Shown here in pieces: positions 7,424 through 21,381 of a stretch of DNA of 32,000 nt. The DNA is from Erysipelothrix inopinata (GTDB taxonomy: Bacteria > Bacillota_I > Bacilli_A > Erysipelotrichales > Erysipelotrichaceae). The number at the start of each line of letters is the position of its first letter. The first letter of the stretch is position 1. Under the pieces are notes generated by a model that ran no database searches, was not told where the DNA came from, and saw nothing but the letters and a program-made list of their open reading frames with translations. The stretch lies in NCBI RefSeq assembly GCF_014396165.1, contig NZ_CP060715.1, positions 1,620,001 to 1,652,000 of the forward strand, given 5' to 3'. The position numbers and the translations under genes were made by a program.

Positions 7424-8638
7424 ATGAAAGTCATTATTATTAATTCTGTGGTTGATTATGGTAGCACAGGGAAAATTGTCAGAGATTTGTATGATGAATT
7501 AAAAAATGAAGGCAATGAAGTTAAAATGGTATATGGTAGACATGAACCCAAAGATTTAGTAGATACTTTTGATATATCCGATCGTTTTTCGTCTATGATA
7601 CATTTAGGAATGTCTCGCTTTTTTGGAGGGCATGGATTACATTCAAATAAAGCTACTAAAAATCTAATAGCTTATATTGAGTCATTTAATCCCGATTTAA
7701 TTCATTTGCATAATCTTCATGGATATTACCTTAATGTGCCGATGCTTTTTGATTTTCTTAATAAAAGACCTGATATTAAAATAGTATGGACTCTTCATGA
7801 CTGCTGGGCTTTCAGTGGTAGTTCGGCCTATTTTTCCTTTGATGGTTGCCAGAAGTGGGATGATGGATGTGTTATCTGTAACAATACTAGTACATACCCT
7901 AAGACGATTGCTAAGGGCAAACAGGAACGAAATTTTAAATGGAAAAAAGATAAATTTACTCAAATTAACGATATGGTTATTGTTACTCCTTCGGATTGGC
8001 TCAAAGATTTAACTGAAAAAACATTTCTGAAAAAATATCCGATAAAACGTATTTATAATGGATTTGATACTAATGTTTTTAACCCTGCAGAGAAAGTCAA
8101 CACCGATAAGAAGATTATTTTAGGTGTTTCTAATATTTGGGAAAAAAGAAAAGGATTGGATGATTTTATTAAATTAAATGAACTTATCTCAGACGAATAT
8201 CAAATCATGCTAATTGGACTTTCTGAGAAACAAATTAAAGAATTGCCTTCAAATATAATTGGTATCGAACGTACAGATAATATTGAAGAGCTCGTATCCT
8301 TGTACTCAAGTGCGTATGTGTATTTAAATCTAAGTGTAGAGGAAACCTTAGGGATGACAACTATCGAATCAATTGCTTGTGGTACTCCTGTCATCGTCTA
8401 TAATCAAACAGCAGTTCCCGAAGTCGTAAATGACTGCGTAGGGTTTGTTGTAGAAGCAGGGGACGTTAAACAATTATGGTCGCTTATTGAAAATACTGAT
8501 TTTGATGGCTACAATTCAGATGAATTAAGAGAGTATGGTTTGAAATTTGATAAGAAAAATATGGTAAACAACTATATTAATACATATAAACAACTATTAG
8601 GAGAAAACGATGAATCCAATTCAACAAGAAGAATTTAA
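7424..8638 (+). CDS. Glycosyltransferase family 4
   Basis: 404 aa. Contains 'HLHNLHGYYLN', a Cys cluster 'HDCWAFSG..DGCQKWDDGCVICNN', and C-terminal 'EETLGMTTIESIACGTPVIV' (E-x7-E). RBS AAGGAAGG lies upstream. Confidence 0.75.
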   Translation: MKVIIINSVVDYGSTGKIVRDLYDELKNEGNEVKMVYGRHEPKDLVDTFDISDRFSSMIHLGMSRFFGGHGLHSNKATKNLIAYIESFNPDLIHLHNLHGYYLNVPMLFDFLNKRPDIKIVWTLHDCWAFSGSSAYFSFDGCQKWDDGCVICNNTSTYPKTIAKGKQERNFKWKKDKFTQINDMVIVTPSDWLKDLTEKTFLKKYPIKRIYNGFDTNVFNPAEKVNTDKKIILGVSNIWEKRKGLDDFIKLNELISDEYQIMLIGLSEKQIKELPSNIIGIERTDNIEELVSLYSSAYVYLNLSVEETLGMTTIESIACGTPVIVYNQTAVPEVVNDCVGFVVEAGDVKQLWSLIENTDFDGYNSDELREYGLKFDKKNMVNNYINTYKQLLGENDESNSTRRI

Positions 8639-9455
8639 TATACTTTGCGAGTTTGATCGTATTTGTAAAAAACACAACTTAAAATATTCACTGGGCTATG
8701 GGACGATGCTCGGTGCGGTTAGACATCATGGGTTCATTCCATGGGATGATGATGTTGATGTAATTATGAGTCGAGACGAGTACAATCGTTTTTTGAGTAT
8801 TGTAGATGAAGAATTGAATGATAATTACTCATTTGTTGATAACAAGCGTGAAAAAAACTATTGGTATGGGTTTGGGAAGATTCGTAGTAACAATATTTTA
8901 CTTCCAGAAAAATCAACTGAGTATCTTGGGATTAAACAAGGTGTTTGGATAGATATTTTTCCCTTTGATTCTCTCCCTGATGACACTCATTTAGCTCAAT
9001 TGCAAAGAGATAATTTAAAAAAATACCATAATCATTTTGTAGCATTTGTTTTTACACACCCGCAATCCGGTGATAAATTTCCCAAAAAAATTGTGAAATC
9101 ACTTTTCTGTGGTTTTAATAGAGTTTTTGCAAAAGTAAATCCCACTTTGAAGTCTAATTTTGACAAAATGATTGAGGAAGCAACAAAATACAATAACTCT
9201 AATTCTAAATACTTAAATGGACTGTCATTGAACTTTACGGATAGAGAGTATACAGGTTCAATTATCAGCAAAGATGAAATTGATAATACAATTGAAGTAA
9301 AGTTTGAATCTTCTGAGTTTCCAATTATGTCGTGTTATGACAAGTTTTTGACTGGTATATATGGCGACTATATGTCATATCCTCCTTTAGAAGATCAAAG
9401 GTCTGTTCATGATGTTAGCGAAATGATTGTAGTTAATAATAAGAATATGAAATAA
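8610..9455 (+). CDS. licD: LicD-family phosphotransferase, second copy
   Basis: '[28 protein letters not shown]' plus C-terminal 'GIYGDYMSYPPLEDQRSVH', which parallels '[18 protein letters not shown]' in copy 1. RBS GGAG 7 nt upstream. Overlaps the upstream gene by 29 nt. Confidence 0.85.
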   Translation: MNPIQQEEFNILCEFDRICKKHNLKYSLGYGTMLGAVRHHGFIPWDDDVDVIMSRDEYNRFLSIVDEELNDNYSFVDNKREKNYWYGFGKIRSNNILLPEKSTEYLGIKQGVWIDIFPFDSLPDDTHLAQLQRDNLKKYHNHFVAFVFTHPQSGDKFPKKIVKSLFCGFNRVFAKVNPTLKSNFDKMIEEATKYNNSNSKYLNGLSLNFTDREYTGSIISKDEIDNTIEVKFESSEFPIMSCYDKFLTGIYGDYMSYPPLEDQRSVHDVSEMIVVNNKNMK

Positions 9456-9491: not shown

Positions 9492-9623
9492 ATGGAACCA
9501 ACGTTATTTGTTCTTTTATTTACCATTCTAGTAGGGTCTGTAATTGATAATTATCGTATCAGAAAAGAACTTCAAGATATAAAGAAAGTACTGTCCGAAA
9601 TTAGTCGAAATATGAATGAATAA
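9492..9623 (+). CDS. Small (43 aa) single-TM protein, below the ORF-track cutoff
   Basis: ATG 9492 is preceded by GAAAGGAGG. Translation: MEPTLFVLLFTILVGSVIDNYRIRKELQDIKKVLSEISRNMNE, a hydrophobic N-terminus with a charged tail. A terminator follows directly. Confidence 0.45.
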   Translation: MEPTLFVLLFTILVGSVIDNYRIRKELQDIKKVLSEISRNMNE

Positions 9624-9625
9624 AC

Positions 9626-9650
9626 AAAACATCTCTAACGAGGTGTTTTT
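9626..9650 (+). terminator. Rho-independent terminator closing the glycopolymer operon
   Basis: Stem aaaacatctc / gaggtgtttt (one G-U pair), loop taac, T-run. Confidence 0.7.
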
Positions 9651-9665
9651 AATTGTTAGCTAATC

Positions 9666-9695
9666 TTGAATTATACTACATGATGTAGTATAATT
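9666..9695 (+). promoter_or_regulatory. Sigma-A-type promoter (TTGAAT-17-TATAAT) overlapped by a 27-bp perfect palindrome; BlaI/MecI/CopY-type operator
   Basis: AATTATACTACAT-G-ATGTAGTATAATT (9669-9695) has 13-bp arms and the core ACTACA-N3-TGTAGT, the same core as the two boxes at 13763-13807. -35 at 9666-9671, -10 at 9689-9694. Confidence 0.6.
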
Positions 9696-9820
9696 TTCTT
9701 GGTTTTTACTAAAACTATTTCAAAGTATGTTGCTTGAACTTTAATTACGTTAGACTTTCAATGTTTGTGAATATATATGAGAATTACTCAAATCTAAATA
9801 TGGCGAGTTTATGAAAGTAA

Positions 9821-9849
9821 TTGTTACAGAGTCTTAAGTGAGTTATAAT
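9821..9849 (+). promoter_or_regulatory. Candidate second promoter (TTGTTA-17-TATAAT) proximal to the YidC-like gene
   Basis: Hexamers at 9821-9826 and 9844-9849 with a 17-nt spacer. No operator overlaps it. Confidence 0.35.
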
Positions 9850-9896
9850 TGAAATGTTGTGAACGCACAAAATAGAAATAACTAAGAGGTGGAAAA

Positions 9897-10597
9897 ATGC
9901 TAGATATTTTAACAGAGCCGTTCTCTAGATTTATAGGGGCTATTTTTGTTTGGACCCTTGGCATTGTTCATGATCATGGACTTGCACTAATTGTCTTAAG
10001 TATAGTTGTTAACATTATACTTTCCCTTTTTATCATTTTGCTGACAAAATTGAGAAGAAAGAGAAGCAAGCTCAATTACAAATGAAACCGAAGTTGGATG
10101 AATTTAAAAGTGTGTATAAAGGATATGAGCTGTATCTATACACAAATAACGTATATCGATTAAATGACTATCATCCTTCATATGCACTTCGTGGACTTGT
10201 TAGCTTGCTAATTCAGATTCCTTTCTTTATGGGTGCGTATGCATACTTATCCCATTTCACTGGATTTGAAGGTGTATCATTTTTATTTTTAAGTGACTTA
10301 TCGAAACCAGATGGACTCTTATCCATAGGTACTTTAAGCATTAATATTTTACCGTTTGTTATGACGGCCATTAACTTAGCATCAGGTTATGTTTATGCTA
10401 AAGATATGACTAAGAGCGAAAAAATTACGCCTATTGTGATAGCTCTGTTCTTCTTGGTAGTGTTATATAATTCGCCATCTAGTTTACTAGTTTATTGGAC
10501 ATGTAATAATATTTTCAGTCTCATTAAAACGCTTGTTTATGCCAAACTAGATAAACAAAAAGCAGAAAAAATTGCAGGAGGTGCGGTAGAATGTTAG
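9897..10597 (+). pseudogene. YidC/Oxa1-family membrane insertase-like gene split by a frame change (ORFs 9897-10085 and 10082-10597)
   Basis: ORF1 'GLALIVLSIVVNIIL' matches YidC TM1. The ORF2 frame is open from 10013 and reads 'FPFYHFADKIEKKEKQAQLQMKPKLDEFK...LVSLLIQIPFFMGAY', the YidC amphipathic helix and TM2 pattern. A -1 shift between 10013 and 10085 (T5 run at 10027-10031) restores one ~233-aa protein. Confidence 0.6.
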
Positions 10598-13500
10598 TTT
10601 TGTACATTGATCCAGGAACTGGAAGTATGCTTATTTCCGCAACAATTGCGTTATTCTCTGTTGCATTCTTTATGTTAAAAGGAGTTATCTACCGTAAGTT
10701 TAGTATTGGAGGCGACAAGGGAGAAGCCTTGGATCCTTCAAAAAAATATGGCTTAGTTTTCTATTCAGAAGGAAAACAATATTGGAATGTGTTCCAACCA
10801 TTGGTAGAGGAAGCAAGCCGTCGTAATATACCTGCAACATACTTTACAAGTGATAAAGAGGACCCAGGTTTAACTGCTAATCTCGAAGGTATTGAAGCTA
10901 AATTCATTGGCTCAGGACGTGAAGCGTATTATGTTTTAAACCGTCTTAATGCCGATGTTGTTGTTATGACGACACCAGGTCTTGATGTCTTGGAAATTAA
11001 ACGAAGTAAAAATGTTAAACATTATGTACACGTAACTCACTCTGCTGGAAGTGTTAGTGAATATAAAGCGTATGGTACTGACTATTTTGATAGTGTTCTT
11101 GTCGGAGGTGATGGGGACTACAGCTTAATTCGAGAATTAGAATCTAAGCGTAATATTAATGTTAAAGAAATAGAAATAATTGGTAACACATATCTCGATG
11201 TGATGCGAACTAACCTAAAGAATGAAAGTTATGAATATACAATTTTCGAAGAAAAAAGACCAACTATTCTATTATCGCCAACTTGGGGCGACCATGGCTT
11301 GCTAACAAAATTTGGAAATGAACTTCTATCCAAATTAGAAGAGACAGATAAATTTAACATTATTATTCGCCCTCATCCGCAATCTTTTATTTCTGAAGCG
11401 CAAGTTATGGAAGAATTGATGACTAAATTCCCTAATAATGAACATCGTGTTTGGAATAGAGATGTTCAGAACCTTAAAGCAATGGCACATGCAGATATCA
11501 TGATTAGTGATTTCTCAGGTATTATTTTCGATTTCTATGCACTGTTTAAAAAACCTATATTGACTCTCAATGGGCAATTGGAAAAGCGCGGTCGTGATGC
11601 AATAGATGTTGATGGTGATGCATGGCATATCGAATTACTCGACGTTATTGGAAAAAATGTATCAGATAAAGATATCCCTAATTTAATTGACATCATTGAT
11701 CAGACACTTGAAAATGAAGCTGTTAATAATAGTGCAGGAGATACACTATCACTCTCTGATAAATATCCAAATGAAGCGGGTACTCGAGGTATGGATTTCA
11801 TTTCTAAGAAACTAGAAGCAGTTAAAAGTAAAGAGACAGAAAACGAAGTCTCCAATGTTGCTTCACAGCCACTTCTTAATGAAAACTATACATTTAATAA
11901 TCGTTGTGAAGGGGTTCAAGGAAACTGGATTACGAAGTTTATTAAATCAATTTTTAATCCGAACATGCTCATTCAGCTTGCGATGGGATCTGCATTGTTA
12001 GTTGGATATACTTATTTAGGTAAGAGATATCTTCCAGAAGGCGGATTGAACTCATTATTCTTAATAGGGATTTTATCAAAAACAGTCATGATTACAATTG
12101 GACTATTACTAATATTTCTATTATTTACATGGGTTCAAGGAAAAGGTAAGATTTCACTTCAGAAACAATCAGAACCAATCGATTGGAAAGATTTATTCTT
12201 TGTTGCCTTACCAATGACACCGATCATCCAATATATCATAGCTAATCAAGATATCTTGGACTTCAAGAGTTCTGTGTTAGTATTTGCAACGTTTGCTTTA
12301 ATAGCAGCAATTGCTATCGTAATTCTTCCTTGGTTTATGAGTACTGTTCTTGCTAAGGATGTTTCAGTTGCTGTCACAATGTCGTTCTTATTTATTGTAT
12401 TCAATATGGCTAGTTTCGGTAAAGTTACTGAACCAAAAACAATATTCTGGATTCTTCTTGGATTGTGTCTTGCTATATTCTTAATATTATTCTTAGACAA
12501 AAAGAAATTACTAATAATTATTTCCTTGATTTTCTTCGTCACAAACTTTGTTACTTCAGTGACCAAAGGGTCAAATAATGAAAAAGAATTTGTAAATGAA
12601 ACAACAGAATACAATACACGAATTGCTGAGATGACTGAAGGTAAAGAAGTAAAACATACGCCTGATGTGTATATCATTATTTATGATGCATACTCTAATC
12701 AACAAACATTAGATGCATACGGTATTGACCACAGTGATCAATTTAACTATATGCTTGATAAAGGCTTCGCGATTTATGATGGTACGTACTCTGTAGGTCC
12801 TTACTCGATCATTGCGATGTCACATTTATTAAACCCTCAACCAATTCCTGAAAGCTCAACTGAATTCAGACGTATGCTAGCGGGAGATGGTTCTGCAGTT
12901 CAAGAATTTAATAAACTTGGATACTTTACGAACTCTGTCCATGAATCAGATTACATGACAAAAGACTTCGATCCGAAATTTGATTATTCTTATCCAGATA
13001 ACAGTTCCTCAATTGCGCCGCATAAGATTATTAATAAAGCAATTTTAGAGGGAGAGTTCAGGTTCGATGTGGAGTTCTCTGAAAATACATATCCTGATTT
13101 TATGGTTGCAAAACGGAAAGTGCTAGCGCAAAATCGTAAAGAACCAGAGTTCCTATATACTCATGGAAGTAATCCTGGTCATACTCAAAATTCGGGCGTA
13201 TTAACGCAGGCTGATTTTGATCAACATGTGTTCGCATTAGAATCTGCCAATGTGGAAATGCGTGATGATTTTAATGCGCTTGATATTGATAACCGTGAAG
13301 ATGCCATTGTTATTATTGCGGGTGATCACGGACCATACCTTACAAAAACAGGGATTGGATTAGGTGACTTCCCACTATCAGAAATTGATCGATTAGACAT
13401 TCAAGATCGTTACGGAGCGCTTCTTGCAATTCACTGGCCTAAAGGTGTGGATCCAACTCGCTTTGATATTCGTACAGTTCAAGATGCTTTACCTGCAGTT

Positions 13501-13677
13501 CTTGCTTATATGTATGATGACGACGAACTTTTTGATCAAATTCGAATGGGTCGTGATATCTTAGCACCTTACACAGTAGGGGAAGCGAATGTTATTGATG
13601 GCAAGATTGTCGGAGGTCCTAATGATGGAGAACCACTCTATCTTGACCGAAAAGTTAGATTTAAAAATGCTAACTGA
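10591..13677 (+). CDS. Tri-modular envelope enzyme: TagB/TagF-like CDP-glycerol glycerophosphotransferase + polytopic membrane block + alkaline-phosphatase-superfamily (sulfatase/EptA/LtaS-like) domain
   Basis: 1028 aa with GGAGG 9 nt upstream. N-terminal TM. Residues ~50-400 carry 'ILLSPTWG', 'IIRPHPQS' and 'ADIMISDFSGIIFDFYALFKKPIL' (TagF pattern). Residues ~455-650 form about 6 TM helices. Residues ~690-1028 carry 'DVYIIIYDAYSNQ', 'LYTHGSNPGH' and 'IIAGDHGPYL'. Confidence 0.75.
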   Translation: MLVLYIDPGTGSMLISATIALFSVAFFMLKGVIYRKFSIGGDKGEALDPSKKYGLVFYSEGKQYWNVFQPLVEEASRRNIPATYFTSDKEDPGLTANLEGIEAKFIGSGREAYYVLNRLNADVVVMTTPGLDVLEIKRSKNVKHYVHVTHSAGSVSEYKAYGTDYFDSVLVGGDGDYSLIRELESKRNINVKEIEIIGNTYLDVMRTNLKNESYEYTIFEEKRPTILLSPTWGDHGLLTKFGNELLSKLEETDKFNIIIRPHPQSFISEAQVMEELMTKFPNNEHRVWNRDVQNLKAMAHADIMISDFSGIIFDFYALFKKPILTLNGQLEKRGRDAIDVDGDAWHIELLDVIGKNVSDKDIPNLIDIIDQTLENEAVNNSAGDTLSLSDKYPNEAGTRGMDFISKKLEAVKSKETENEVSNVASQPLLNENYTFNNRCEGVQGNWITKFIKSIFNPNMLIQLAMGSALLVGYTYLGKRYLPEGGLNSLFLIGILSKTVMITIGLLLIFLLFTWVQGKGKISLQKQSEPIDWKDLFFVALPMTPIIQYIIANQDILDFKSSVLVFATFALIAAIAIVILPWFMSTVLAKDVSVAVTMSFLFIVFNMASFGKVTEPKTIFWILLGLCLAIFLILFLDKKKLLIIISLIFFVTNFVTSVTKGSNNEKEFVNETTEYNTRIAEMTEGKEVKHTPDVYIIIYDAYSNQQTLDAYGIDHSDQFNYMLDKGFAIYDGTYSVGPYSIIAMSHLLNPQPIPESSTEFRRMLAGDGSAVQEFNKLGYFTNSVHESDYMTKDFDPKFDYSYPDNSSSIAPHKIINKAILEGEFRFDVEFSENTYPDFMVAKRKVLAQNRKEPEFLYTHGSNPGHTQNSGVLTQADFDQHVFALESANVEMRDDFNALDIDNREDAIVIIAGDHGPYLTKTGIGLGDFPLSEIDRLDIQDRYGALLAIHWPKGVDPTRFDIRTVQDALPAVLAYMYDDDELFDQIRMGRDILAPYTVGEANVIDGKIVGGPNDGEPLYLDRKVRFKNAN

Positions 13678-13704: not shown

Positions 13705-13750
13705 AAAAAGCTCTACATAAGGAAACTTTACCTATTTGTAGAGTTTTTTT
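13705..13750 (+). terminator. Rho-independent terminator (large loop)
   Basis: Stem ctctaca (13711-13717) / tgtagag (13737-13743), flanked by an A-run and a T7 run. Confidence 0.55.
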
Positions 13751-13762
13751 ATGTGTTCTAGA

Positions 13763-13808
13763 TACTACAACATGTAGTGTTGACAGAATTAACTACATGT
13801 TGTAGTAT
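13763..13808 (+). promoter_or_regulatory. Autoregulated promoter with two BlaI-type operators flanking -35 and overlapping -10
   Basis: Box 1 is TACTACAACATGTAGT (13763-13778) and box 2 is ACTACATGTTGTAGTA (13792-13807). Each has the ACTACA-N3-TGTAGT core, and they are mutual reverse complements. TTGACA (13780-13785), 17 nt, TAGTAT (13803-13808). Confidence 0.7.
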
Positions 13809-13833: not shown

Positions 13834-14202
13834 ATGAAAACTATAAGTGATGCAGAACTTGAAGTCATGCAATTGATTTGGGACCATGAGGGGGAACCTA
13901 TGACTGTAAAAGAAATTCAACAAAATCTTATTTCGGAAAAACAATGGAAAATTACTACAGTTCAGACCTTTATTAAGCGTCTTACTGACAAAGGCTATCT
14001 TAATGTTGAAAAAATTAATGGTTTAAATAAATATAATGCCAAGGTGAGTCGCGATGCTTTTAGTTCAAGCGAAACCAAGAAAATTATAAATACTATTCAT
14101 TCTGGATCAGTGAAGGATTTCGTTGCTTCACTTATAGATTCTGATGATTTAACGTCAGATGATATTGATGATCTTCGAAACTGGTTGAATGATCATGAGT
14201 AA
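13834..14202 (+). CDS. BlaI/MecI/CopY-family winged-helix transcriptional repressor
   Basis: 122 aa from ATG 13834 (GGAGG upstream). 'ISDAELEVMQLIWD...MTVKEIQQNL...WKITTVQTFIKRLTDKGYL' is the typical Penicillinase_R pattern. The track start at 13777 is non-ATG and lies inside the operator/promoter. Confidence 0.85.
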   Translation: MKTISDAELEVMQLIWDHEGEPMTVKEIQQNLISEKQWKITTVQTFIKRLTDKGYLNVEKINGLNKYNAKVSRDAFSSSETKKIINTIHSGSVKDFVASLIDSDDLTSDDIDDLRNWLNDHE

Positions 14203-15835
14203 TATAGGATTTCATCTTATAGTTATGTCTTTTGTGACATCGATAGTTTATGGTGTTGTTGCACTATGCATAAAACTAAATAATAAATCTTTAAAAGAAC
14301 AAACTAAATATCGAGTATTTCTTTTAACCATGTTACTCTTAGTTTTACCTTTACATCTTGTGTTTCCACAAGTAAATATTGTCAATAACAATAGCATTGA
14401 CAACTTAACCATGAAACCAGATGTTACCTTGATTTCTGCAGAAAAATCTGTAATTGAGACAAAAACAAGTGTGGATTTTCAAAATGAAAATCTTAATAAT
14501 ACCAGTCCTTTCAATGAAGTTAGTACACAAAGCGCATCACTCTATATCTATGTATTTGGTGCAATAATTCTTTTAGGCAGTTACTTAATTTCAATTCTAC
14601 GTTTTAATACTCGAATTCGTAAATTTTTGAAAAGAAATGAAATTAAATCAATTGCTGATAAACCTGAGATATACATTATTGACGAAAAAATGAGCCCGTT
14701 TGTATTTGGATTAATTAATCCAAAGATAATCGTTCCAAAGTATTTAAAAGAAGAAGAAAACTTCCAATTAATATTGGAACACGAACAGACACATATCAAA
14801 CGCCATGATGTGTTGATTAAGCATCTCGCTAACCTGCTCACAATTATTCACTGGTTTAATCCAGCAATCTATCTACTTAAGCGTGATTTATTTAATACCA
14901 TGGAATCTTCGTGTGATGAAGCAGTTCTCGAAAACTGCTCAACTTTGGAGAGAAAAGGTTATGCAACTCTAGTTTTAGATACACTTGAAACAAATATTAT
15001 GAATTCCAGAAAATATTCTTTAGGATTTGCATCAAGTAATAAAGAAAAAACGAAGGAGAGAATTTATTTGATTATGAATGATTCTAAGAAAAGTAAATTT
15101 AAAAAAATATCTACTTATTTTACAATCGGTTTTGCGCTAATCATTACACTGTTCATTTCGAGAAACTTAGTATTTGCTAATACGTTAAATGCACCTGAAC
15201 CTGTAGAAGATATTACTGATGTAATGGGTGATGAGAATGATTCTTCGGATACTAATAATATTTCCAATGAAACAGATGAACTGGATGAAACATTAGAAAC
15301 GACAGAAACTGAAGAAATCGTCGAAACTGAAGAAAAGAACGAAGAGACTGTAGTGCCAGAAGAAAAAACTGTCGTTGAAGAGAAGCTACAGCAAGTTGAG
15401 AAAAAGGAAATCATACAAAAAGTCGAAGAACCTAAAAAAGAAATAAACGATCCCAATCGATGGGCAACTAATCCTGTAAGAGGATCAATTATCTTATGTG
15501 AGTGGGGATGCTATAGCGGTCACTCAGGAACTGACTTTAGTATGGACCCTCAAGTTGAAGGCGTTAATATCTATCCAATTGCGAAGGGTGTTATTATTAA
15601 AGTTGATTATAATGAGGGTGGCTACGGTAATTATATTGTCATTCAGCACGATAATGGGTTTAAATCAACTTATGCTCATATGCAAAGTCTCGACCATAAA
15701 GTTGGGACGAAAGTAACAACTGAAACTGTGATTGGAAAAATAGGAATGACTGGAAGAACGACACAACCACATGTTCACGTGGAAGTTCATAATCCTGAAA
15801 ATGCCAAAGTTGATTTAGGTAAATTTTTAAAATAA
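14189..15835 (+). CDS. BlaR1/MecR1-like M56 signal-transducing metalloprotease with a C-terminal M23 (LytM-type) peptidase domain
   Basis: 548 aa. Its start overlaps the blaI-like stop (ATGATCATGAGTAA). M56 motif 'LILEHEQTHIKRHD'. Late TM 'ISTYFTIGFALIITLFISRNLVFA'. An E/T/K-rich linker precedes M23 motifs 'GHSGTD' (HxxxD) and 'HVHVEVH' (HxH). Confidence 0.85.
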   Translation: MIMSNIGFHLIVMSFVTSIVYGVVALCIKLNNKSLKEQTKYRVFLLTMLLLVLPLHLVFPQVNIVNNNSIDNLTMKPDVTLISAEKSVIETKTSVDFQNENLNNTSPFNEVSTQSASLYIYVFGAIILLGSYLISILRFNTRIRKFLKRNEIKSIADKPEIYIIDEKMSPFVFGLINPKIIVPKYLKEEENFQLILEHEQTHIKRHDVLIKHLANLLTIIHWFNPAIYLLKRDLFNTMESSCDEAVLENCSTLERKGYATLVLDTLETNIMNSRKYSLGFASSNKEKTKERIYLIMNDSKKSKFKKISTYFTIGFALIITLFISRNLVFANTLNAPEPVEDITDVMGDENDSSDTNNISNETDELDETLETTETEEIVETEEKNEETVVPEEKTVVEEKLQQVEKKEIIQKVEEPKKEINDPNRWATNPVRGSIILCEWGCYSGHSGTDFSMDPQVEGVNIYPIAKGVIIKVDYNEGGYGNYIVIQHDNGFKSTYAHMQSLDHKVGTKVTTETVIGKIGMTGRTTQPHVHVEVHNPENAKVDLGKFLK

Positions 15836-15841
15836 CACTTC

Positions 15842-15879
15842 AAGGTATGAATTTATTCTAATAAATTCATACCTTTTTA
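15842..15879 (+). terminator. Rho-independent terminator
   Basis: 14-bp stem aaggtatgaattta / taaattcatacctt, 6-nt loop, T5. Confidence 0.8.
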
Positions 15880-19887: not shown

Positions 19888-21381
19888 ATGGATAAAATAC
19901 TGAATAAAGTACTTAGTGCTTTTATTGTATTTATTGTATTGGTAAGCAGTGTAGTTACTGCTTCTGCCGCAACCGATAGTGGTTATGTTCTGCTAGCGCA
20001 TATGAGTGATAAGGCTGTTTCAGTTGGAACAAAGGTTAAGCCAGGTACTGTTTTGGGGACTATGGGAATGACAGGTAATGCAACTGTCGAGCATGTTCAT
20101 GTGGAATATACATTAACATCGAATAATGAAAAACATAATAGATTAGATCCTAAGAAATACATTAATATCTATCAAACTTTAGATAAACCATCAAAAATCC
20201 TATGTGATGTAGGTTGTTATACGGGTCATAAAGGAGTAGATATGATTCCAAGCGATGGCTCCTATTCAGCTAAAGTCATATCTCCGGTAAATGGTGTTGT
20301 TGTAGAATCAGGAGTTCAAAAAGCGGGGTGGGGTAATTATGTCCGTATTAGAATTGAAGGAAGTACCACTCCCAAACCAGATAATATAGTTTGGGCGCCA
20401 GGCTACTTTTCGGTTACGGAATTAGGATCAACAGTCCAACTATCACCAAGTGAGTCAGGAAAAGTTGTTCGAAAGTATAAAAAGGACTATGTGGGTCAAT
20501 ATGATGGCTACATTGATACTAATGGATACCGTTGGCTAACATGGACTGAAGGAAACCAACGCGTATACATGGCACAATATGTATTAAATTGGTCATCTGT
20601 TTATGCGGATGCTGCAGGGGTGAAAAAAGTTAACGAAACTTCTGAAACTGGATATTTCACAGTCTCAAAAATCGGTGCAGGCGTACAAGTAATGCCGAGT
20701 GAAAAAGGAAAGTTTGTACGTAAATATCAAGAAGGATATGTTGGACAATATGACGGGTACTTTGATGCAAATGGGTATCGTTGGCTTACTTGGAAAGAAG
20801 GGGATCAACGAGTTTATATGGCCCTATACTCTCTTGATTGGTCATCTATCTATGCAGATGCCGCTGGAGTGAAAAAAGTCAATGAAACAACTGAAACAGG
20901 CTACTTTACAGTGACAAAAATTGGTGCCGGAGTTCAAGTGGTCCCAAGTGAAAAAGGAAAGTTTGTACGTAAATATCAAGAAGGATATGTTGGACAATAT
21001 GATGGATACTTTGATGCAAATGGATATCGTTGGCTTACTTGGAAAGAAGGAAATCAACGAGTTTATATGGCCCTATACTCTCTTGATTGGTCATCTATCT
21101 ATGCAGATGCTGCGGGTGTGAAAAAAACAAATGAAGTAACTGAAAACGGAACTTTCACTGTAACGAAGCTCGGAGCTGGAGTTCAAGTAGTGCCTAGTGA
21201 GAAAGGTCAATTTGTTAGACGATATCAAGAAGGTCAAGAAGGTCAGTATGATGGGTATTTTGATGCGAATGGCTATCGATGGGTGACCTGGAAAGAAGGA
21301 GATCGTAGAGTGTATATGGCAATTCACGTCATCAATGATAGCAATACGATTTATGCTAAAATAAGAAAAAATCCAAATTAA
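19888..21381 (+). CDS. Secreted M23-family peptidase (motif order permuted) with four SH3b (SH3_5-like) cell-wall-binding repeats
   Basis: 497 aa. Signal peptide ends ...VTASA/A. 'GMTGNATVEHVHVEY' (HxH) comes before 'GCYTGHKGVDM' (HxxxD) and 'GWGNYVRI'. Four ~83-aa repeats, 'YDGYFDANGYRWLTWKEGDQRVYMALY', resemble the lysostaphin SH3_5 domain. Confidence 0.8.
   Translation: MDKILNKVLSAFIVFIVLVSSVVTASAATDSGYVLLAHMSDKAVSVGTKVKPGTVLGTMGMTGNATVEHVHVEYTLTSNNEKHNRLDPKKYINIYQTLDKPSKILCDVGCYTGHKGVDMIPSDGSYSAKVISPVNGVVVESGVQKAGWGNYVRIRIEGSTTPKPDNIVWAPGYFSVTELGSTVQLSPSESGKVVRKYKKDYVGQYDGYIDTNGYRWLTWTEGNQRVYMAQYVLNWSSVYADAAGVKKVNETSETGYFTVSKIGAGVQVMPSEKGKFVRKYQEGYVGQYDGYFDANGYRWLTWKEGDQRVYMALYSLDWSSIYADAAGVKKVNETTETGYFTVTKIGAGVQVVPSEKGKFVRKYQEGYVGQYDGYFDANGYRWLTWKEGNQRVYMALYSLDWSSIYADAAGVKKTNEVTENGTFTVTKLGAGVQVVPSEKGQFVRRYQEGQEGQYDGYFDANGYRWVTWKEGDRRVYMAIHVINDSNTIYAKIRKNPN
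20401..21378 (+). repeat. Tandem in-frame 249-bp repeats, three full units and a shorter last one
   Basis: Units start at 20401, 20650, 20899 and 21148. Units 2 and 3 share identical runs of 56 nt (20698-20753 = 20947-21002) and 58 nt (20804-20861 = 21053-21110). Confidence 0.9.

What the first reader, a model, noticed from the sequence alone, without database searches (positions are those of the whole stretch)
9666..9695. The BlaI-type operator on the blaI-like promoter also sits on the promoter upstream of the YidC-like/TagF-fusion operon
The core ACTACA-N3-TGTAGT occurs three times in 32 kb by my scan. Two copies (13763-13778 and 13792-13807) bracket the -35 and overlap the -10 of the blaI/blaR1-like promoter. 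One copy lies inside a perfect 27-bp palindrome (9669-9695) that covers the -10 of a TTGAAT-17-TATAAT promoter, about 200 nt upstream of the YidC-like gene. The BlaI/MecI/CopY family is known to bind TACA..TGTA dyads. This predicts a small regulon in which the M56-M23 sensor derepresses a membrane insertase paralog and a giant teichoic-acid-type enzyme.
Basis: partly seen in the sequence, partly recalled or inferred. Interest (0 to 1): 0.68.

Follow-up and report, generated by a model that had tools for sequence, protein, structure and literature searches.

The report
Shared BlaI-type operator, two promoters
A DNA-binding site of the kind used by penicillin-resistance repressors sits both on the repressor's own promoter and on a promoter for a neighbouring cell-wall-polymer operon, which predicts a small envelope-stress regulon in an uncultured Erysipelothrix-like bacterium; this is a clean new example of a recently recognised kind of system, not a new kind.

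Summary
ACTACA-N3-TGTAGT occurs exactly three times in the window; no shuffle gave a match and about 0.004 are expected. One copy is the core of a perfect 27-bp palindrome (9669-9695). It fills the spacer and overlaps the -10 of TTGAAT-17-TATAAT, just after a terminator. The other two flank the -35 and overlap the -10 of the blaI-like promoter.

The half-sites equal the published S. aureus mecA operator (ACTACA-TT-TGTAGT), with one extra spacer base.

Comparative evidence supports a shared regulon:
- Two related strains keep all three sites.
- A lineage with 55% TagF identity has blaI-blaR-yidC-tagF in one same-strand cluster behind a single operator-bearing promoter.
- Four lineages with no blaIR seen beside the pair have no operator upstream of yidC.
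- Unrelated metagenomic BlaI/M56 loci carry the same 15-mer at blaI promoters and at the promoter of a downstream DsbA-like gene.

Three qualifications apply:
- A second, proximal promoter (9821-9849) has positional counterparts in relatives. It probably gives repressor-independent basal expression.
- The yidC-like gene is frameshifted in this strain.
- That gene looks like a dedicated partner of a TagF-like/EptA-LtaS-like fusion enzyme, not a general insertase.

BlaIR systems that do not sense beta-lactams and control envelope genes are already described (CenIR, 2026). This is a new member of a known kind. Nothing has been tested experimentally.

The parts
9626..9649 (+). Intrinsic terminator closing the upstream unit (LicD gene plus a 43-aa ORF). 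It isolates the promoter that follows.
   Evidence: 10-pair stem, 4-nt loop, T-run.
9666..9694 (+). Distal promoter P1: TTGAAT-17-TATAAT.
   Evidence: 10 of 12 matches. Identical in L003 and L132.
9669..9695 (.). Operator OY: a perfect 27-bp palindrome, AATTATACTACAT-G-ATGTAGTATAATT, with core ACTACA-TGA-TGTAGT at 9675-9689. It fills the P1 spacer and overlaps the -10.
9821..9849 (+). Proximal promoter P2: TTGTTA-17-TATAAT, 47 nt upstream of the ATG, with no operator. It is the probable basal promoter.
   Evidence: Promoter-like sites lie at the equivalent position in L008 (TTGAAT-17-TATAAT), L135 (TTGTTT-17-TATAAT, read) and L004 (TTGTGA-16-TATAGT).
9897..10085 (+). yidC-like gene, N-terminal fragment (62 aa). 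It goes out of frame after about codon 42 because of a 1-nt deletion near 10022.
   Evidence: The gene is intact (232-233 aa) in L003, L132 and L004.
10082..10597 (+). yidC-like gene, C-terminal fragment (171 aa). It restarts at the internal Met with an ATGA overlap.
   Evidence: PF02096, E 8e-19. The intact ortholog passes TIGR03592 (92.5 bits against a cut-off of 84.3).
10591..13677 (+). 1028-aa fusion enzyme. It has an N-terminal TM helix, a cytoplasmic TagF-like GT-B domain, a TM bundle and an extracytoplasmic EptA/LtaS-like domain of the alkaline-phosphatase superfamily.
   Evidence: PF04464. AlphaFold2 model with mean pLDDT 84. Foldseek hits to EptA, MCR-1, PbgA, LtaS and TagF-like capsule polymerases.
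13705..13749 (+). Hairpin plus T-run, the likely terminator of the yidC-tagF unit. It makes blaI-blaR a separate unit.
   Evidence: pair I4: 13-nt arms, 92% complementary, followed by TTTTTTT. The simple terminator scan did not list it because the loop is 19 nt.
13764..13778 (.). Operator O1: ACTACA-ACA-TGTAGT, ending 1 nt before the blaI -35.
   Evidence: L003 has one mismatch here (CGTAGT). L132 is identical.
13780..13808 (+). blaI promoter: TTGACA-17-TAGTAT.
   Evidence: L004 has the same layout, TTGACA-N6-ACTACA-N3-TGTAGTAT.
13792..13806 (.). Operator O2: ACTACA-TGT-TGTAGT, overlapping the blaI -10.
   Evidence: L132 keeps the half-sites but has a different spacer, TAA.
13834..14202 (+). 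BlaI/MecI-family repressor, 122 aa counted from the ATG that follows the GGAGG.
   Evidence: PF03965, E 3e-30. MecI (1okr) E 9e-15 over residues 4-119.
14189..15835 (+). BlaR-like sensor-protease. It has an M56 domain with HEQTH and ESSCD motifs, a further hydrophobic segment, an acidic linker and a C-terminal M23 peptidase domain.
   Evidence: PF05569 E 5e-41 and PF01551 E 5e-23. The M23 motifs HxxxD, H and HxH align with ShyA.

Best explanation
The 27-bp palindrome at 9669-9695 is an operator for the BlaI/MecI-family repressor encoded 4 kb downstream.

Proposed mechanism (inferred, except where a step is marked as shown):
1. In the resting state, repressor dimers occupy three sites. O1 and O2 on the blaI-blaR promoter give autorepression. 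OY lies between the -35 and -10 of the distal promoter P1 of the yidC-like/tagF-like operon, where a bound dimer would block RNA polymerase.
2. The partner membrane protein has the M56 zinc-protease domain of BlaR1. In place of a penicillin-binding domain it has an M23 (LytM-type) peptidoglycan-peptidase domain with its catalytic residues intact (shown by alignment). By analogy with BlaR1, an event at the extracytoplasmic M23 domain activates the M56 protease. That event is probably engagement with some state or fragment of peptidoglycan. The protease cleaves the repressor, and both promoters open.
3. The output is more of a two-gene module: a YidC-like membrane protein, and a 1028-aa enzyme that joins a TagF-like polymerase to an EptA/LtaS-like membrane phosphotransferase. 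The module lies inside a locus for phosphocholine-decorated glycopolymers (LicD, choline kinase, EutH).
4. A proximal promoter without an operator (P2, 9821-9849) probably supplies basal expression. The system would then add to expression rather than switch it on from zero.

What is shown: the sites, their geometry, the protein families and the comparative pattern. What is inferred: binding, cleavage, the signal and the activity of each promoter.
For: 1. Three exact copies against about 0.004 expected. All three lie on promoter elements, and none lies in the large coding majority of the window.
2. The half-sites are identical to the experimentally bound S. aureus mecA operator (PMC1935004 Table 1). 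The repressor's closest solved relative is MecI.
3. Strains L003 and L132 keep OY and O2. In L132 the O2 spacer differs (TAA against TGT) while the half-sites are unchanged. In L003 the tagF-blaI intergenic region is only 68% identical, yet both dyads are still there, with one mismatch in O1.
4. Erysipelothrix sp. MAGs (L004/L005, TagF 55% identical, BlaI 48% identical) have the order blaI-blaR(M56-M23)-yidC-tagF on one strand, with a 70-bp gap and no terminator. A single ATACTACA-CTG-TGTAGTAT lies at the blaI promoter. This is a different wiring that gives the same predicted control.
5. Four lineages of the yidC-tagF pair with no blaIR seen beside it (L008, L009-L011, L135/L136) have no such dyad upstream of yidC.
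6. Of 120 metagenome loci retrieved only by the 14-specified-base palindrome TACTACA-N3-TGTAGTA (0.70 Mb in total), 7 encode a BlaI-family protein. In 6 of the 7 a copy of the dyad lies at the blaI promoter, or next to or just downstream of the adjacent M56 gene. In L102, L019 and L110 that downstream copy sits directly in front of a DsbA-like gene. In L045 it lies two genes downstream of blaI. L054 has two copies 27 bp apart upstream of blaI, like O1/O2 here.
7. [quoted passage not shown] That paper also lists M56-M23 among the common architectures (PMC13492132).
Against: - There is no experimental evidence of binding, of a transcription start near 9700, or of induction.
- The TACA/TGTA core alone is a poor predictor of binding in this family (PMC7253601). 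Here, however, the match extends to 6-nt half-sites and beyond.
- The spacer is N3, whereas all classical BlaI/MecI/CopY operators are N2.
- L003 and L132 are close relatives (yidC and blaI 95-99% identical in DNA). Their conservation of OY therefore says little on its own.
- P2 may carry most of the transcription, which would make OY of small effect.
- The rest of the genome could not be scanned. Regulon size and motif frequency outside these 32 kb are unknown.
- For L135/L136 only the upstream side of the pair was visible. For all four lineages without the operator, a blaIR pair elsewhere in the genome cannot be excluded.
- The yidC-like gene is frameshifted in this strain, so the output module may be impaired.
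Confidence: 0.68

Rival explanations
1. The site is a real BlaI-type binding site but matters little. The operon is transcribed mainly from the proximal promoter P2, and P1 is weak or silent, so repressor loss barely changes expression.
For: P1 and P2 score equally (10 of 12 matches). Neither is significant against shuffles. P2 leaves a 47-nt leader. Relatives without any operator have promoter-like sites at that position. The 196-nt leader from P1 has no Rfam match and no unusual folding (z = -0.45), so nothing else argues for a long leader.
Against: P1 follows a terminator directly and has a consensus -10 and a 17-nt spacer. A perfect 27-bp palindrome placed exactly between the -35 and the -10 is hard to explain without selection for promoter occlusion. 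The L004 lineage also places yidC-tagF downstream of an operator-controlled promoter.
Confidence: 0.14
2. The palindrome is bound by another regulator, not by the adjacent repressor. This could be a paralogous BlaI-family protein encoded elsewhere or an unrelated dimeric protein. On this view the resemblance to the blaI-promoter sites reflects family-wide half-site preference.
For: Genomes can carry several BlaIR pairs: seven BlaR-like proteins in C. difficile R20291 (PMC13492132), and two pairs within 6 kb in L134. The same 15-mer is used by BlaI proteins only 23-27% identical to this one, so the motif is not specific to one ortholog.
Against: All six half-sites in the window are identical. 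Adjacency of blaIR and yidC-tagF is kept in two different gene orders. The operator was absent wherever no blaIR was seen beside the pair. No second BlaI-family gene was identified in the 32-kb window among the proteins scanned against Pfam.
Confidence: 0.08
3. The site is a relic of a rearrangement. The blaI-blaR pair moved from upstream of yidC (the L004 order) to downstream of tagF, or the reverse. That left or copied the old blaI promoter and operator in front of yidC, and it persists without selected function.
For: Gene order differs between lineages. In both, the layout is terminator, then promoter, then operator. The strains that share OY are too close for conservation to prove constraint.
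Against: OY is not a copy of the blaI promoter. The -35 hexamer differs. The operator lies 3 nt after the -35, against 6 nt at the blaI promoter. The -10 is TATAAT rather than TAGTAT. OY is also the most perfect of the three dyads, at 27 bp with no mismatch, whereas a decaying relic would be expected to be the least perfect. Even if it arose by rearrangement, a bound repressor at that position would still repress P1.
Confidence: 0.06

Closest known systems
S. aureus MecI/MecR1 and the mecA operator; also BlaI/BlaR1 of S. aureus and B. licheniformis
   Same: The repressor is of the same family, and MecI is its best PDB match. The 6-nt half-sites are identical to OPmecA...GACTACATTTGTAGTAT.... 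Paired operators lie on the autoregulated promoter. The repressor gene is followed by, and overlaps, an M56 membrane-protease gene with HEXXH.
   Different: The spacer is N3, not N2. The sensor's C-terminal domain is an M23 peptidase, not a penicillin-binding transpeptidase-like domain. The target is not a beta-lactamase or PBP2a but a glycopolymer-synthesis operon. The target promoter is not divergent from the regulator genes; it lies 4 kb away on the same strand.
CenIR of Clostridioides difficile (PMC13492132, 2026) and the other atypical BlaIR systems: M. tuberculosis and M. abscessus BlaIR, and P. aeruginosa PvmSR (bioRxiv 10.64898/2026.08.03.742534)
   Same: [quoted passage not shown] CenIR controls a small regulon of cell-envelope genes, including a gene next to the regulator pair. 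The inducing signal is unknown.
   Different: CenR has a short disordered C-terminus, whereas this sensor has a folded M23 domain that looks catalytically competent. No operator is mentioned in the CenIR paper (no occurrence of 'operator'), whereas here the sites are explicit. The target here is a TagF-like/EptA-LtaS-like polymer enzyme, not Cwp6 or CDR_0474.
CopY/CopR cop-box regulons
   Same: Same repressor fold and TACA..TGTA dyads. Two operators lie on the autoregulated promoter, and extra copies elsewhere define a small regulon (PMC7253601).
   Different: The repressor here has no C-terminal CxC metal-binding motif. It scores below the CopY_TcrY cut-off (79.5 against 121.95). It is paired with a protease, not with copper-handling genes.

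Membership tests
BlaI/MecI/CopY repressor family (Penicillinase_R, PF03965) | Full-length match to the family profile: an N-terminal winged helix plus a C-terminal dimerisation domain. | tested here: met
   PF03965 E 3e-30, 105 bits against a cut-off of 22.6, residues 4-119 of 122. MecI (1okr) aligns over residues 4-119 against 8-121, E 9e-15.
BlaI/MecI/CopY repressor family (Penicillinase_R, PF03965) | Dyad operators with a TACA/TGTA core on its own promoter. | tested here: met
   O1 and O2 at 13764-13778 and 13792-13806 lie on TTGACA-17-TAGTAT. The spacer is N3, not the classical N2.
BlaI/MecI/CopY repressor family (Penicillinase_R, PF03965) | The protein actually binds these dyads. | not testable with these tools
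   This needs EMSA or footprinting. PMC7253601 warns that the 10-bp core alone does not predict binding.
Specific orthologs: BlaI of beta-lactamase operons, MecI, CopY/TcrY | A score above the NCBIfam equivalog or exception cut-off. | tested here: not met
   CopY_TcrY 79.5 against 121.95. BlaI_of_BCL 72.6 against 180. MecI_of_mecA 59.3 against 250. It is a family member but not one of the named orthologs.
CopY-type copper repressors | A C-terminal CxC...CxC metal-binding motif. | tested here: not met
   The 122-aa sequence contains no cysteine (read directly from the translation).
BlaR1/MecR1 sensor-transducers | An M56 zinc-protease domain with HEXXH. | tested here: met
   PF05569 E 5e-41, residues 12-295. 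HEQTH and ESSCD are read from the translation.
BlaR1/MecR1 sensor-transducers | A C-terminal penicillin-binding (transpeptidase-like, PF00905) sensor domain. | tested here: not met
   The C-terminus is Peptidase_M23, PF01551 E 5e-23. blaR1_generic scores 80 against a cut-off of 400. It is therefore an atypical BlaR, not a beta-lactam sensor.
BlaR1/MecR1 sensor-transducers | Genetic pairing with a BlaI-type gene. | tested here: met
   blaI (13834-14202) overlaps blaR (14189-15835). The same pairing is seen in L003, L004, L132, L133 and L134.
M23 (LytM-type) metallopeptidases | The catalytic motifs HxxxD, a catalytic H, and HxH. | tested here: met
   The alignment to ShyA (6ue4) keeps HSGTD, the H of YAHM and HVH. 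Activity itself was not tested.
YidC/Oxa1/Alb3 insertases | A match to the conserved five-TM core profile. | tested here: met
   PF02096 E 8e-19 for the window fragment. The intact ortholog in L003 scores 92.5 bits on TIGR03592 against a cut-off of 84.3.
YidC/Oxa1/Alb3 insertases | The conserved arginine in TM1 that lines the hydrophilic groove. (It is essential in Gram-positive YidC; this rests on established knowledge, not on a test here.) | tested here: not met
   In the alignment to T. maritima YidC, LIVRLIL faces IVVNIIL. The position is Asn or Ser in all five orthologs compared.
YidC/Oxa1/Alb3 insertases | An intact reading frame in this window. | tested here: not met
   A 1-nt deletion near 10022, relative to L003, splits the gene into 62 aa and 171 aa.
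TagF-type CDP-glycerol/ribitol phosphotransferases (PF04464) | A profile match and a GT-B fold. | tested here: met
   PF04464 E 9e-10, but covering only residues 186-326. The model matches TagF-like capsule polymerases 8a0c and 8qoy. The substrate is unknown.
LtaS/EptA-type membrane phosphotransferases (alkaline-phosphatase superfamily) | A TM bundle followed by an extracytoplasmic sulfatase-fold domain. | tested here: inconclusive
   There is no Pfam hit on residues 671-1028. The full-length model's best Foldseek matches are EptA (5fgn), PbgA, MCR-1 and LtaS, with probability 1.00 and E about 1e-8. A homolog, P0073, carries PF00884. The catalytic nucleophile was not checked.

The most novel reading that the evidence does not exclude
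The M23 domain of the BlaR-like protein works as a sensor of peptidoglycan state, for instance cross-bridge availability or damage. Through cleavage of the repressor it raises synthesis of a phosphocholine-type secondary wall polymer. This would be a direct proteolytic feedback loop between peptidoglycan and teichoic-acid-like polymer synthesis. Within that module, the arginine-less YidC-like protein would not be an insertase. It would be the membrane conduit or assembly subunit of the TagF-like/EptA-LtaS-like synthase; in some organisms the two, or all three, parts are fused into one polypeptide.
Probability: 0.2. Interest if true: 0.7.

Novelty: new member of a known kind. Interest (0 to 1): 0.45.

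Why it matters
Only about 6% of M56 'BlaR' proteins carry a beta-lactam-binding domain, according to the 2026 CenIR paper. The signals and regulons of the others are almost entirely unknown, and CenIR still has no known inducer.

This locus offers three things:
- an atypical BlaIR pair of the M23 class, which that paper catalogues but does not study;
- an explicit operator with three sites;
- a two-gene target of clear envelope function, with a second lineage that wires the same four genes differently.

That makes a concrete prediction: an M23-sensed wall signal raises a TagF/LtaS-like polymer module. A few EMSA, reporter and RT-qPCR experiments could test it.

The metagenomic by-product is also useful. 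The same 15-mer sits in front of DsbA-like genes in short-M56 systems. This suggests that ACTACA-N3-TGTAGT is a general operator class that could be used to read out regulons of atypical BlaIR systems in silico.

The finding does not reveal a new regulatory principle.

Tried and rejected
- **RNA element in the leader.** I looked for a riboswitch or structured leader between P1 and the yidC start. Rfam gave nothing at gathering scores for the whole window, and nothing at E up to 1 for 9600-9920. Folding of 9701-9900 is ordinary (z = -0.45). No MifM-like upstream ORF was seen on reading the leader: the only ORFs there are 5 and 17 codons without a Shine-Dalgarno sequence.
- **More sites in the window.** A search with 2 mismatches found only a chance-level hit in a coding region.
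- **Second, degenerate operator in L004.** I looked at the internal promoter between blaR and yidC. Nothing turned up with up to 3 mismatches.
- **Scan of species-representative genomes with the 1028-aa protein.** It gave only one distant Treponema hit.
- **Exact-sequence look-up of the 122-aa repressor.** It found nothing, because the gene callers chose a longer start (131 aa).
- **E. rhusiopathiae serovar-region literature (ERH_1440).** That gene appears to be a much shorter TagF-type gene, and those papers mention no repressor or promoter. The lead was dropped.
- **C. thermocellum DAP-seq paper.** Checked for BlaI motifs with N3 spacing. The text passages held nothing usable.
- **CopY identity.** Rejected: no cysteines, and the score is below the cut-off.
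Full report
**1. The observation**

The pattern ACTACANNNTGTAGT matches exactly three times in the 32-kb window, at 9675-9689, 13764-13778 and 13792-13806. None of 100 dinucleotide-preserving shuffles gave any match. From the window's base composition (GC 33.7%) I calculate 0.0037 expected matches per 32 kb and about 0.29 per 2.5 Mb. Relaxing to two mismatches adds one chance-level hit inside a coding region.

The first copy is the core of a perfect 27-bp palindrome, AATTATACTACAT-G-ATGTAGTATAATT, at 9669-9695. It lies 20 nt after an intrinsic terminator (9626-9649). It occupies the spacer and overlaps the -10 of TTGAAT-17-TATAAT (9666-9694).

The other two copies are 17-nt inverted versions of each other, 28 bp centre to centre. 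One ends 1 nt before the -35 and the other overlaps the -10 of TTGACA-17-TAGTAT (13780-13808).

**2. The genes**

Pfam gives the following:
- a LicD gene (8610-9455) and a 43-aa ORF, then the terminator;
- a YidC-like gene in two pieces (9897-10085, 62 aa; 10082-10597, 171 aa, PF02096);
- a 1028-aa protein with a TagF-type domain (10591-13677);
- a hairpin with a T-run (13705-13749);
- a 122-aa Penicillinase_R repressor (13834-14202, E 3e-30);
- an overlapping 548-aa protein with Peptidase_M56 (E 5e-41) and a C-terminal Peptidase_M23 (E 5e-23).

The wider window is a glycopolymer and phosphocholine locus. It holds EpsG, glycosyltransferases, two LicD genes, an LtaS-like sulfatase-fold protein, choline kinases and EutH.

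The repressor's closest solved relative is S. aureus MecI, aligned end to end (E 9e-15). It has no cysteine. It falls below the NCBIfam cut-offs for CopY, BlaI and MecI orthologs. It is therefore a generic family member.

The sensor has HEQTH and ESSCD in the M56 part. Its M23 domain keeps the HxxxD, H and HxH motifs when aligned to the DD-endopeptidase ShyA.

**3. Is the motif a BlaI-type operator?**

The published oligonucleotide for the S. aureus mecA operator is ATAAGACTACATTTGTAGTATATT (PMC1935004, Table 1). That is ACTACA-TT-TGTAGT, with the same six-base half-sites as here and a spacer one base shorter. The family core is given there as TACANNTGTA. A CopY study warns that this 10-bp core alone does not predict binding (PMC7253601). 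I therefore looked for independent support.

I scanned the metagenome collection for the bare palindrome TACTACA-N3-TGTAGTA. tblastn with the window's repressor found a BlaI-family gene in seven of them. The positions are as follows.
- L054 has two copies 27 bp apart upstream of blaI.
- L081 has one copy 24 bp upstream of blaI.
- L102 has one copy at the blaI promoter and another directly in front of a DsbA-like thioredoxin gene that follows blaI and a short M56 gene.
- L019 and L110 have the operator between the M56 gene and a DsbA-like gene.
- L105 has a near-perfect copy at the blaI promoter and an exact one downstream of the gene after its M56 gene.
- L045 has its copy two genes downstream of blaI; no M56 domain was detected there.

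In the five downstream sites a TTGACA lies at promoter distance. These repressors are only 23-27% identical to the one in the window.

A distant M56-M23 system (L134) has two TACA-N3-TGTA cores 23 bp apart upstream of its blaI. Two others use paired CTAC-N4-GTAG dyads.

I conclude two things. ACTACA-N3-TGTAGT is a recurrent operator type for this family. Extra copies in front of non-bla targets are a normal way for these systems to build small regulons.

**4. Comparative test of the link to yidC-tagF**

The window sequence itself recurs in a Logan assembly (L002, 100% identical).

*Two related strains have the same gene order.* These are L003 (TagF 85% identical in protein) and L132 (BlaR 91%). 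Both have an identical P1 and operator. L132 keeps O1 and O2, with a different O2 spacer (TAA against TGT). L003 has one mismatch in O1, although its tagF-blaI intergenic region is only 68% identical overall. These strains are close: yidC is 95% and blaI 99.5% identical in DNA. Conservation of the yidC-side operator alone is therefore weak evidence.

*A more distant lineage is more telling.* In Erysipelothrix sp. MAGs (L004/L005; TagF 55% and BlaI 48% identical) the order is blaI-blaR(M56-M23)-yidC-tagF on one strand. The gap between blaR and yidC is 70 bp, with no terminator. A single ATACTACA-CTG-TGTAGTAT sits on TTGACA-17-TAGTAT at the head of the cluster. The same four genes are thus under the same kind of operator through a different arrangement.

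*Lineages with no blaIR beside the pair lack the dyad.* The yidC-tagF pair is kept, with no blaIR seen next to it, in E. urinaevulpis (L008, 46%), in L009-L011 (44%) and in L135/L136 (54%). In none of them is there a TACA-N3-TGTA dyad upstream of yidC. L007 (55%) shows no blaIR downstream of the pair; its contig is cut inside yidC, so its upstream side is unknown. For L135/L136 the sequence downstream of tagF is cut after about 80 bp. Whether these genomes carry a blaIR pair elsewhere is unknown.

**5. The second promoter**

Relatives without the operator have promoter-like sites at the same short distance from the yidC start:
- L008, TTGAAT-17-TATAAT, about 50 nt;
- L135, TTGTTT-17-TATAAT, about 38 nt (read);
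- L004, TTGTGA-16-TATAGT, about 32 nt.

I read P2 as the ancestral basal promoter. P1 with its operator would be a lineage-specific inducible addition. In L004 the counterpart is read-through from the blaI promoter added to an internal promoter. This is an inference, because promoter matches are at chance density in this AT-rich DNA. The leader between P1 and P2 has no Rfam match and no unusual folding.

**6. What is being regulated**

An AlphaFold2 model of the 1028-aa protein was built from 36 homologs and has mean pLDDT 84. It shows:
- an N-terminal helix;
- a GT-B domain, matching TagF-like capsule polymerases 8a0c and 8qoy;
- a helical membrane bundle;
- a C-terminal domain whose best structural matches are EptA, PbgA, MCR-1 and LtaS. 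Pfam sees nothing in this domain.

The YidC-like partner is always immediately upstream with overlapping stop and start codons. In other organisms it is fused with the TagF-like part, or with both the TagF-like and sulfatase-fold parts, in one polypeptide (P0073 and P0076-P0108). In all five orthologs compared it lacks the TM1 arginine of canonical YidC. It therefore looks like a dedicated subunit of a polymer-synthesis and export machine rather than a spare insertase.

In this window the gene carries a 1-nt deletion near 10022 relative to L003. TM1 is left on a 62-aa peptide and the rest restarts at an internal Met.

**7. Mechanism proposed**

- Shown: three identical dyads on two promoters; the repressor family; an M56 protease motif; an M23 domain with its catalytic motifs intact; conserved or rewired linkage of the four genes.
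- Inferred from the established BlaI/BlaR1 paradigm: repressor dimers occlude P1 and the blaI promoter. An event at the extracytoplasmic M23 domain activates the M56 protease. The protease cleaves the repressor, and both units are derepressed.
- Speculative: the nature of the signal, which may be peptidoglycan state or fragments.

**8. Relation to what is known**

BlaIR-family systems without a beta-lactam-binding domain that control envelope genes have been described. CenIR of C. difficile has about 12 regulated genes. The same paper reports that only about 6% of M56 proteins have a transpeptidase-like domain, and it lists M56-M23 among the nine common architectures (PMC13492132). Atypical pairs have also been studied in mycobacteria and in P. 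aeruginosa.

I found no study of an M23-type sensor and none of a TagF/YidC-like target. That rests on a limited set of searches, and only open-access text is searchable.

The finding is therefore a new member of a known kind. It has an unusually explicit predicted operator and target, and it is untested.

**9. Verdict**

Three amendments apply: the likely basal promoter, the frameshift in yidC, and the probable role of the YidC-like protein as a synthase subunit.

My confidence that the palindrome is a functional operator for the adjacent repressor is about 0.68. Interest is moderate, at 0.45.

Noticed in passing
window 10015-10030 (yidC-like gene 9897-10597): A 1-nt deletion relative to L003 (ATACT-TTCCC against ATACTATTTCC) splits the YidC-like gene into 62 aa and 171 aa. 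The out-of-frame tail is still hydrophobic and then basic, and the second piece restarts at an internal Met with an ATGA overlap. The L002 contig, reported in two samples, carries the same frameshift; L003, L132 and L004 have the gene intact. It could be a pseudogene, a functional split gene or an assembly error.
   Followed up: partly
L003:299-997, L132:3705-4403, L004:2216-2911, L008:5330-6001, L009:5342-6001: The YidC-like proteins paired with the TagF-like fusion lack the conserved TM1 arginine of YidC (Asn or Ser instead). They share an invariant MKPK(L/I)DEFKSVYKGYE motif. Elsewhere they occur fused to TagF-like, or to TagF-like plus sulfatase-fold domains, in one protein (P0073 of 1309 aa; P0076-P0108). 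This suggests a dedicated, non-insertase role in glycopolymer synthesis or export.
   Followed up: partly
window 10591-13677 compared with L003:994-4077: Identity between strains is mosaic. The tagF-like gene is 83% identical in DNA and the tagF-blaI spacer 68%. The flanking genes are much closer: yidC 95%, blaI 99.5% and blaR 96%. This looks like recombination or diversifying selection on the polymer synthase, as at serotype-determining loci.
   Followed up: no
window 12601-13674 (residues 671-1028 of the 1028-aa protein): The C-terminal domain has no Pfam or NCBIfam hit. However, the model's top Foldseek hits are EptA, PbgA, MCR-1 and LtaS (alkaline-phosphatase superfamily), and the domain contains an invariant DHG in IIAGDHGPY. 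It appears to be a sequence family of LtaS/EptA-like domains that current profiles do not cover.
   Followed up: partly
L102:1485-1499, L019:1094-1108, L110:3141-3155: Three unrelated metagenomic loci have blaI, then a short M56/M48-like protease gene with no detected sensor domain, then ACTACA-N3-TGTAGT with a TTGACA at promoter distance, then a DsbA-like thioredoxin gene. This is a recurrent atypical BlaIR module that seems to control an exported oxidoreductase.
   Followed up: partly
window 15842-15875: A 34-bp near-perfect palindrome, AAGGTATGAATTTATT-CT-AATAAATTCATACCTT, has 16-nt arms. It is the longest perfect palindrome found in the window (arms of at least 10 nt, gap of at most 3 nt). 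It starts 7 nt after the blaR stop and lies about 80 nt upstream of the choline-kinase/nucleotidyltransferase gene (15958). It may be an AT-rich terminator or the binding site of another regulator.
   Followed up: no
window 19888-21381: A 497-aa protein has a partial M23 match (only profile positions 44-89) and an SH3_5 cell-wall-binding domain. It is inserted between the 4HBT gene and the choline-kinase gene. The syntenic region of L004/L005 has no such gene. It is a second M23-type protein close to the M56-M23 sensor, with no operator in front of it.
   Followed up: no
window 9492-9623: A 43-aa ORF with a strong Shine-Dalgarno sequence (AAGGAGG) and one hydrophobic helix lies between the LicD gene and the terminator that precedes P1. 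The gene callers also called it in L132 and L002. It has no family match.
   Followed up: no
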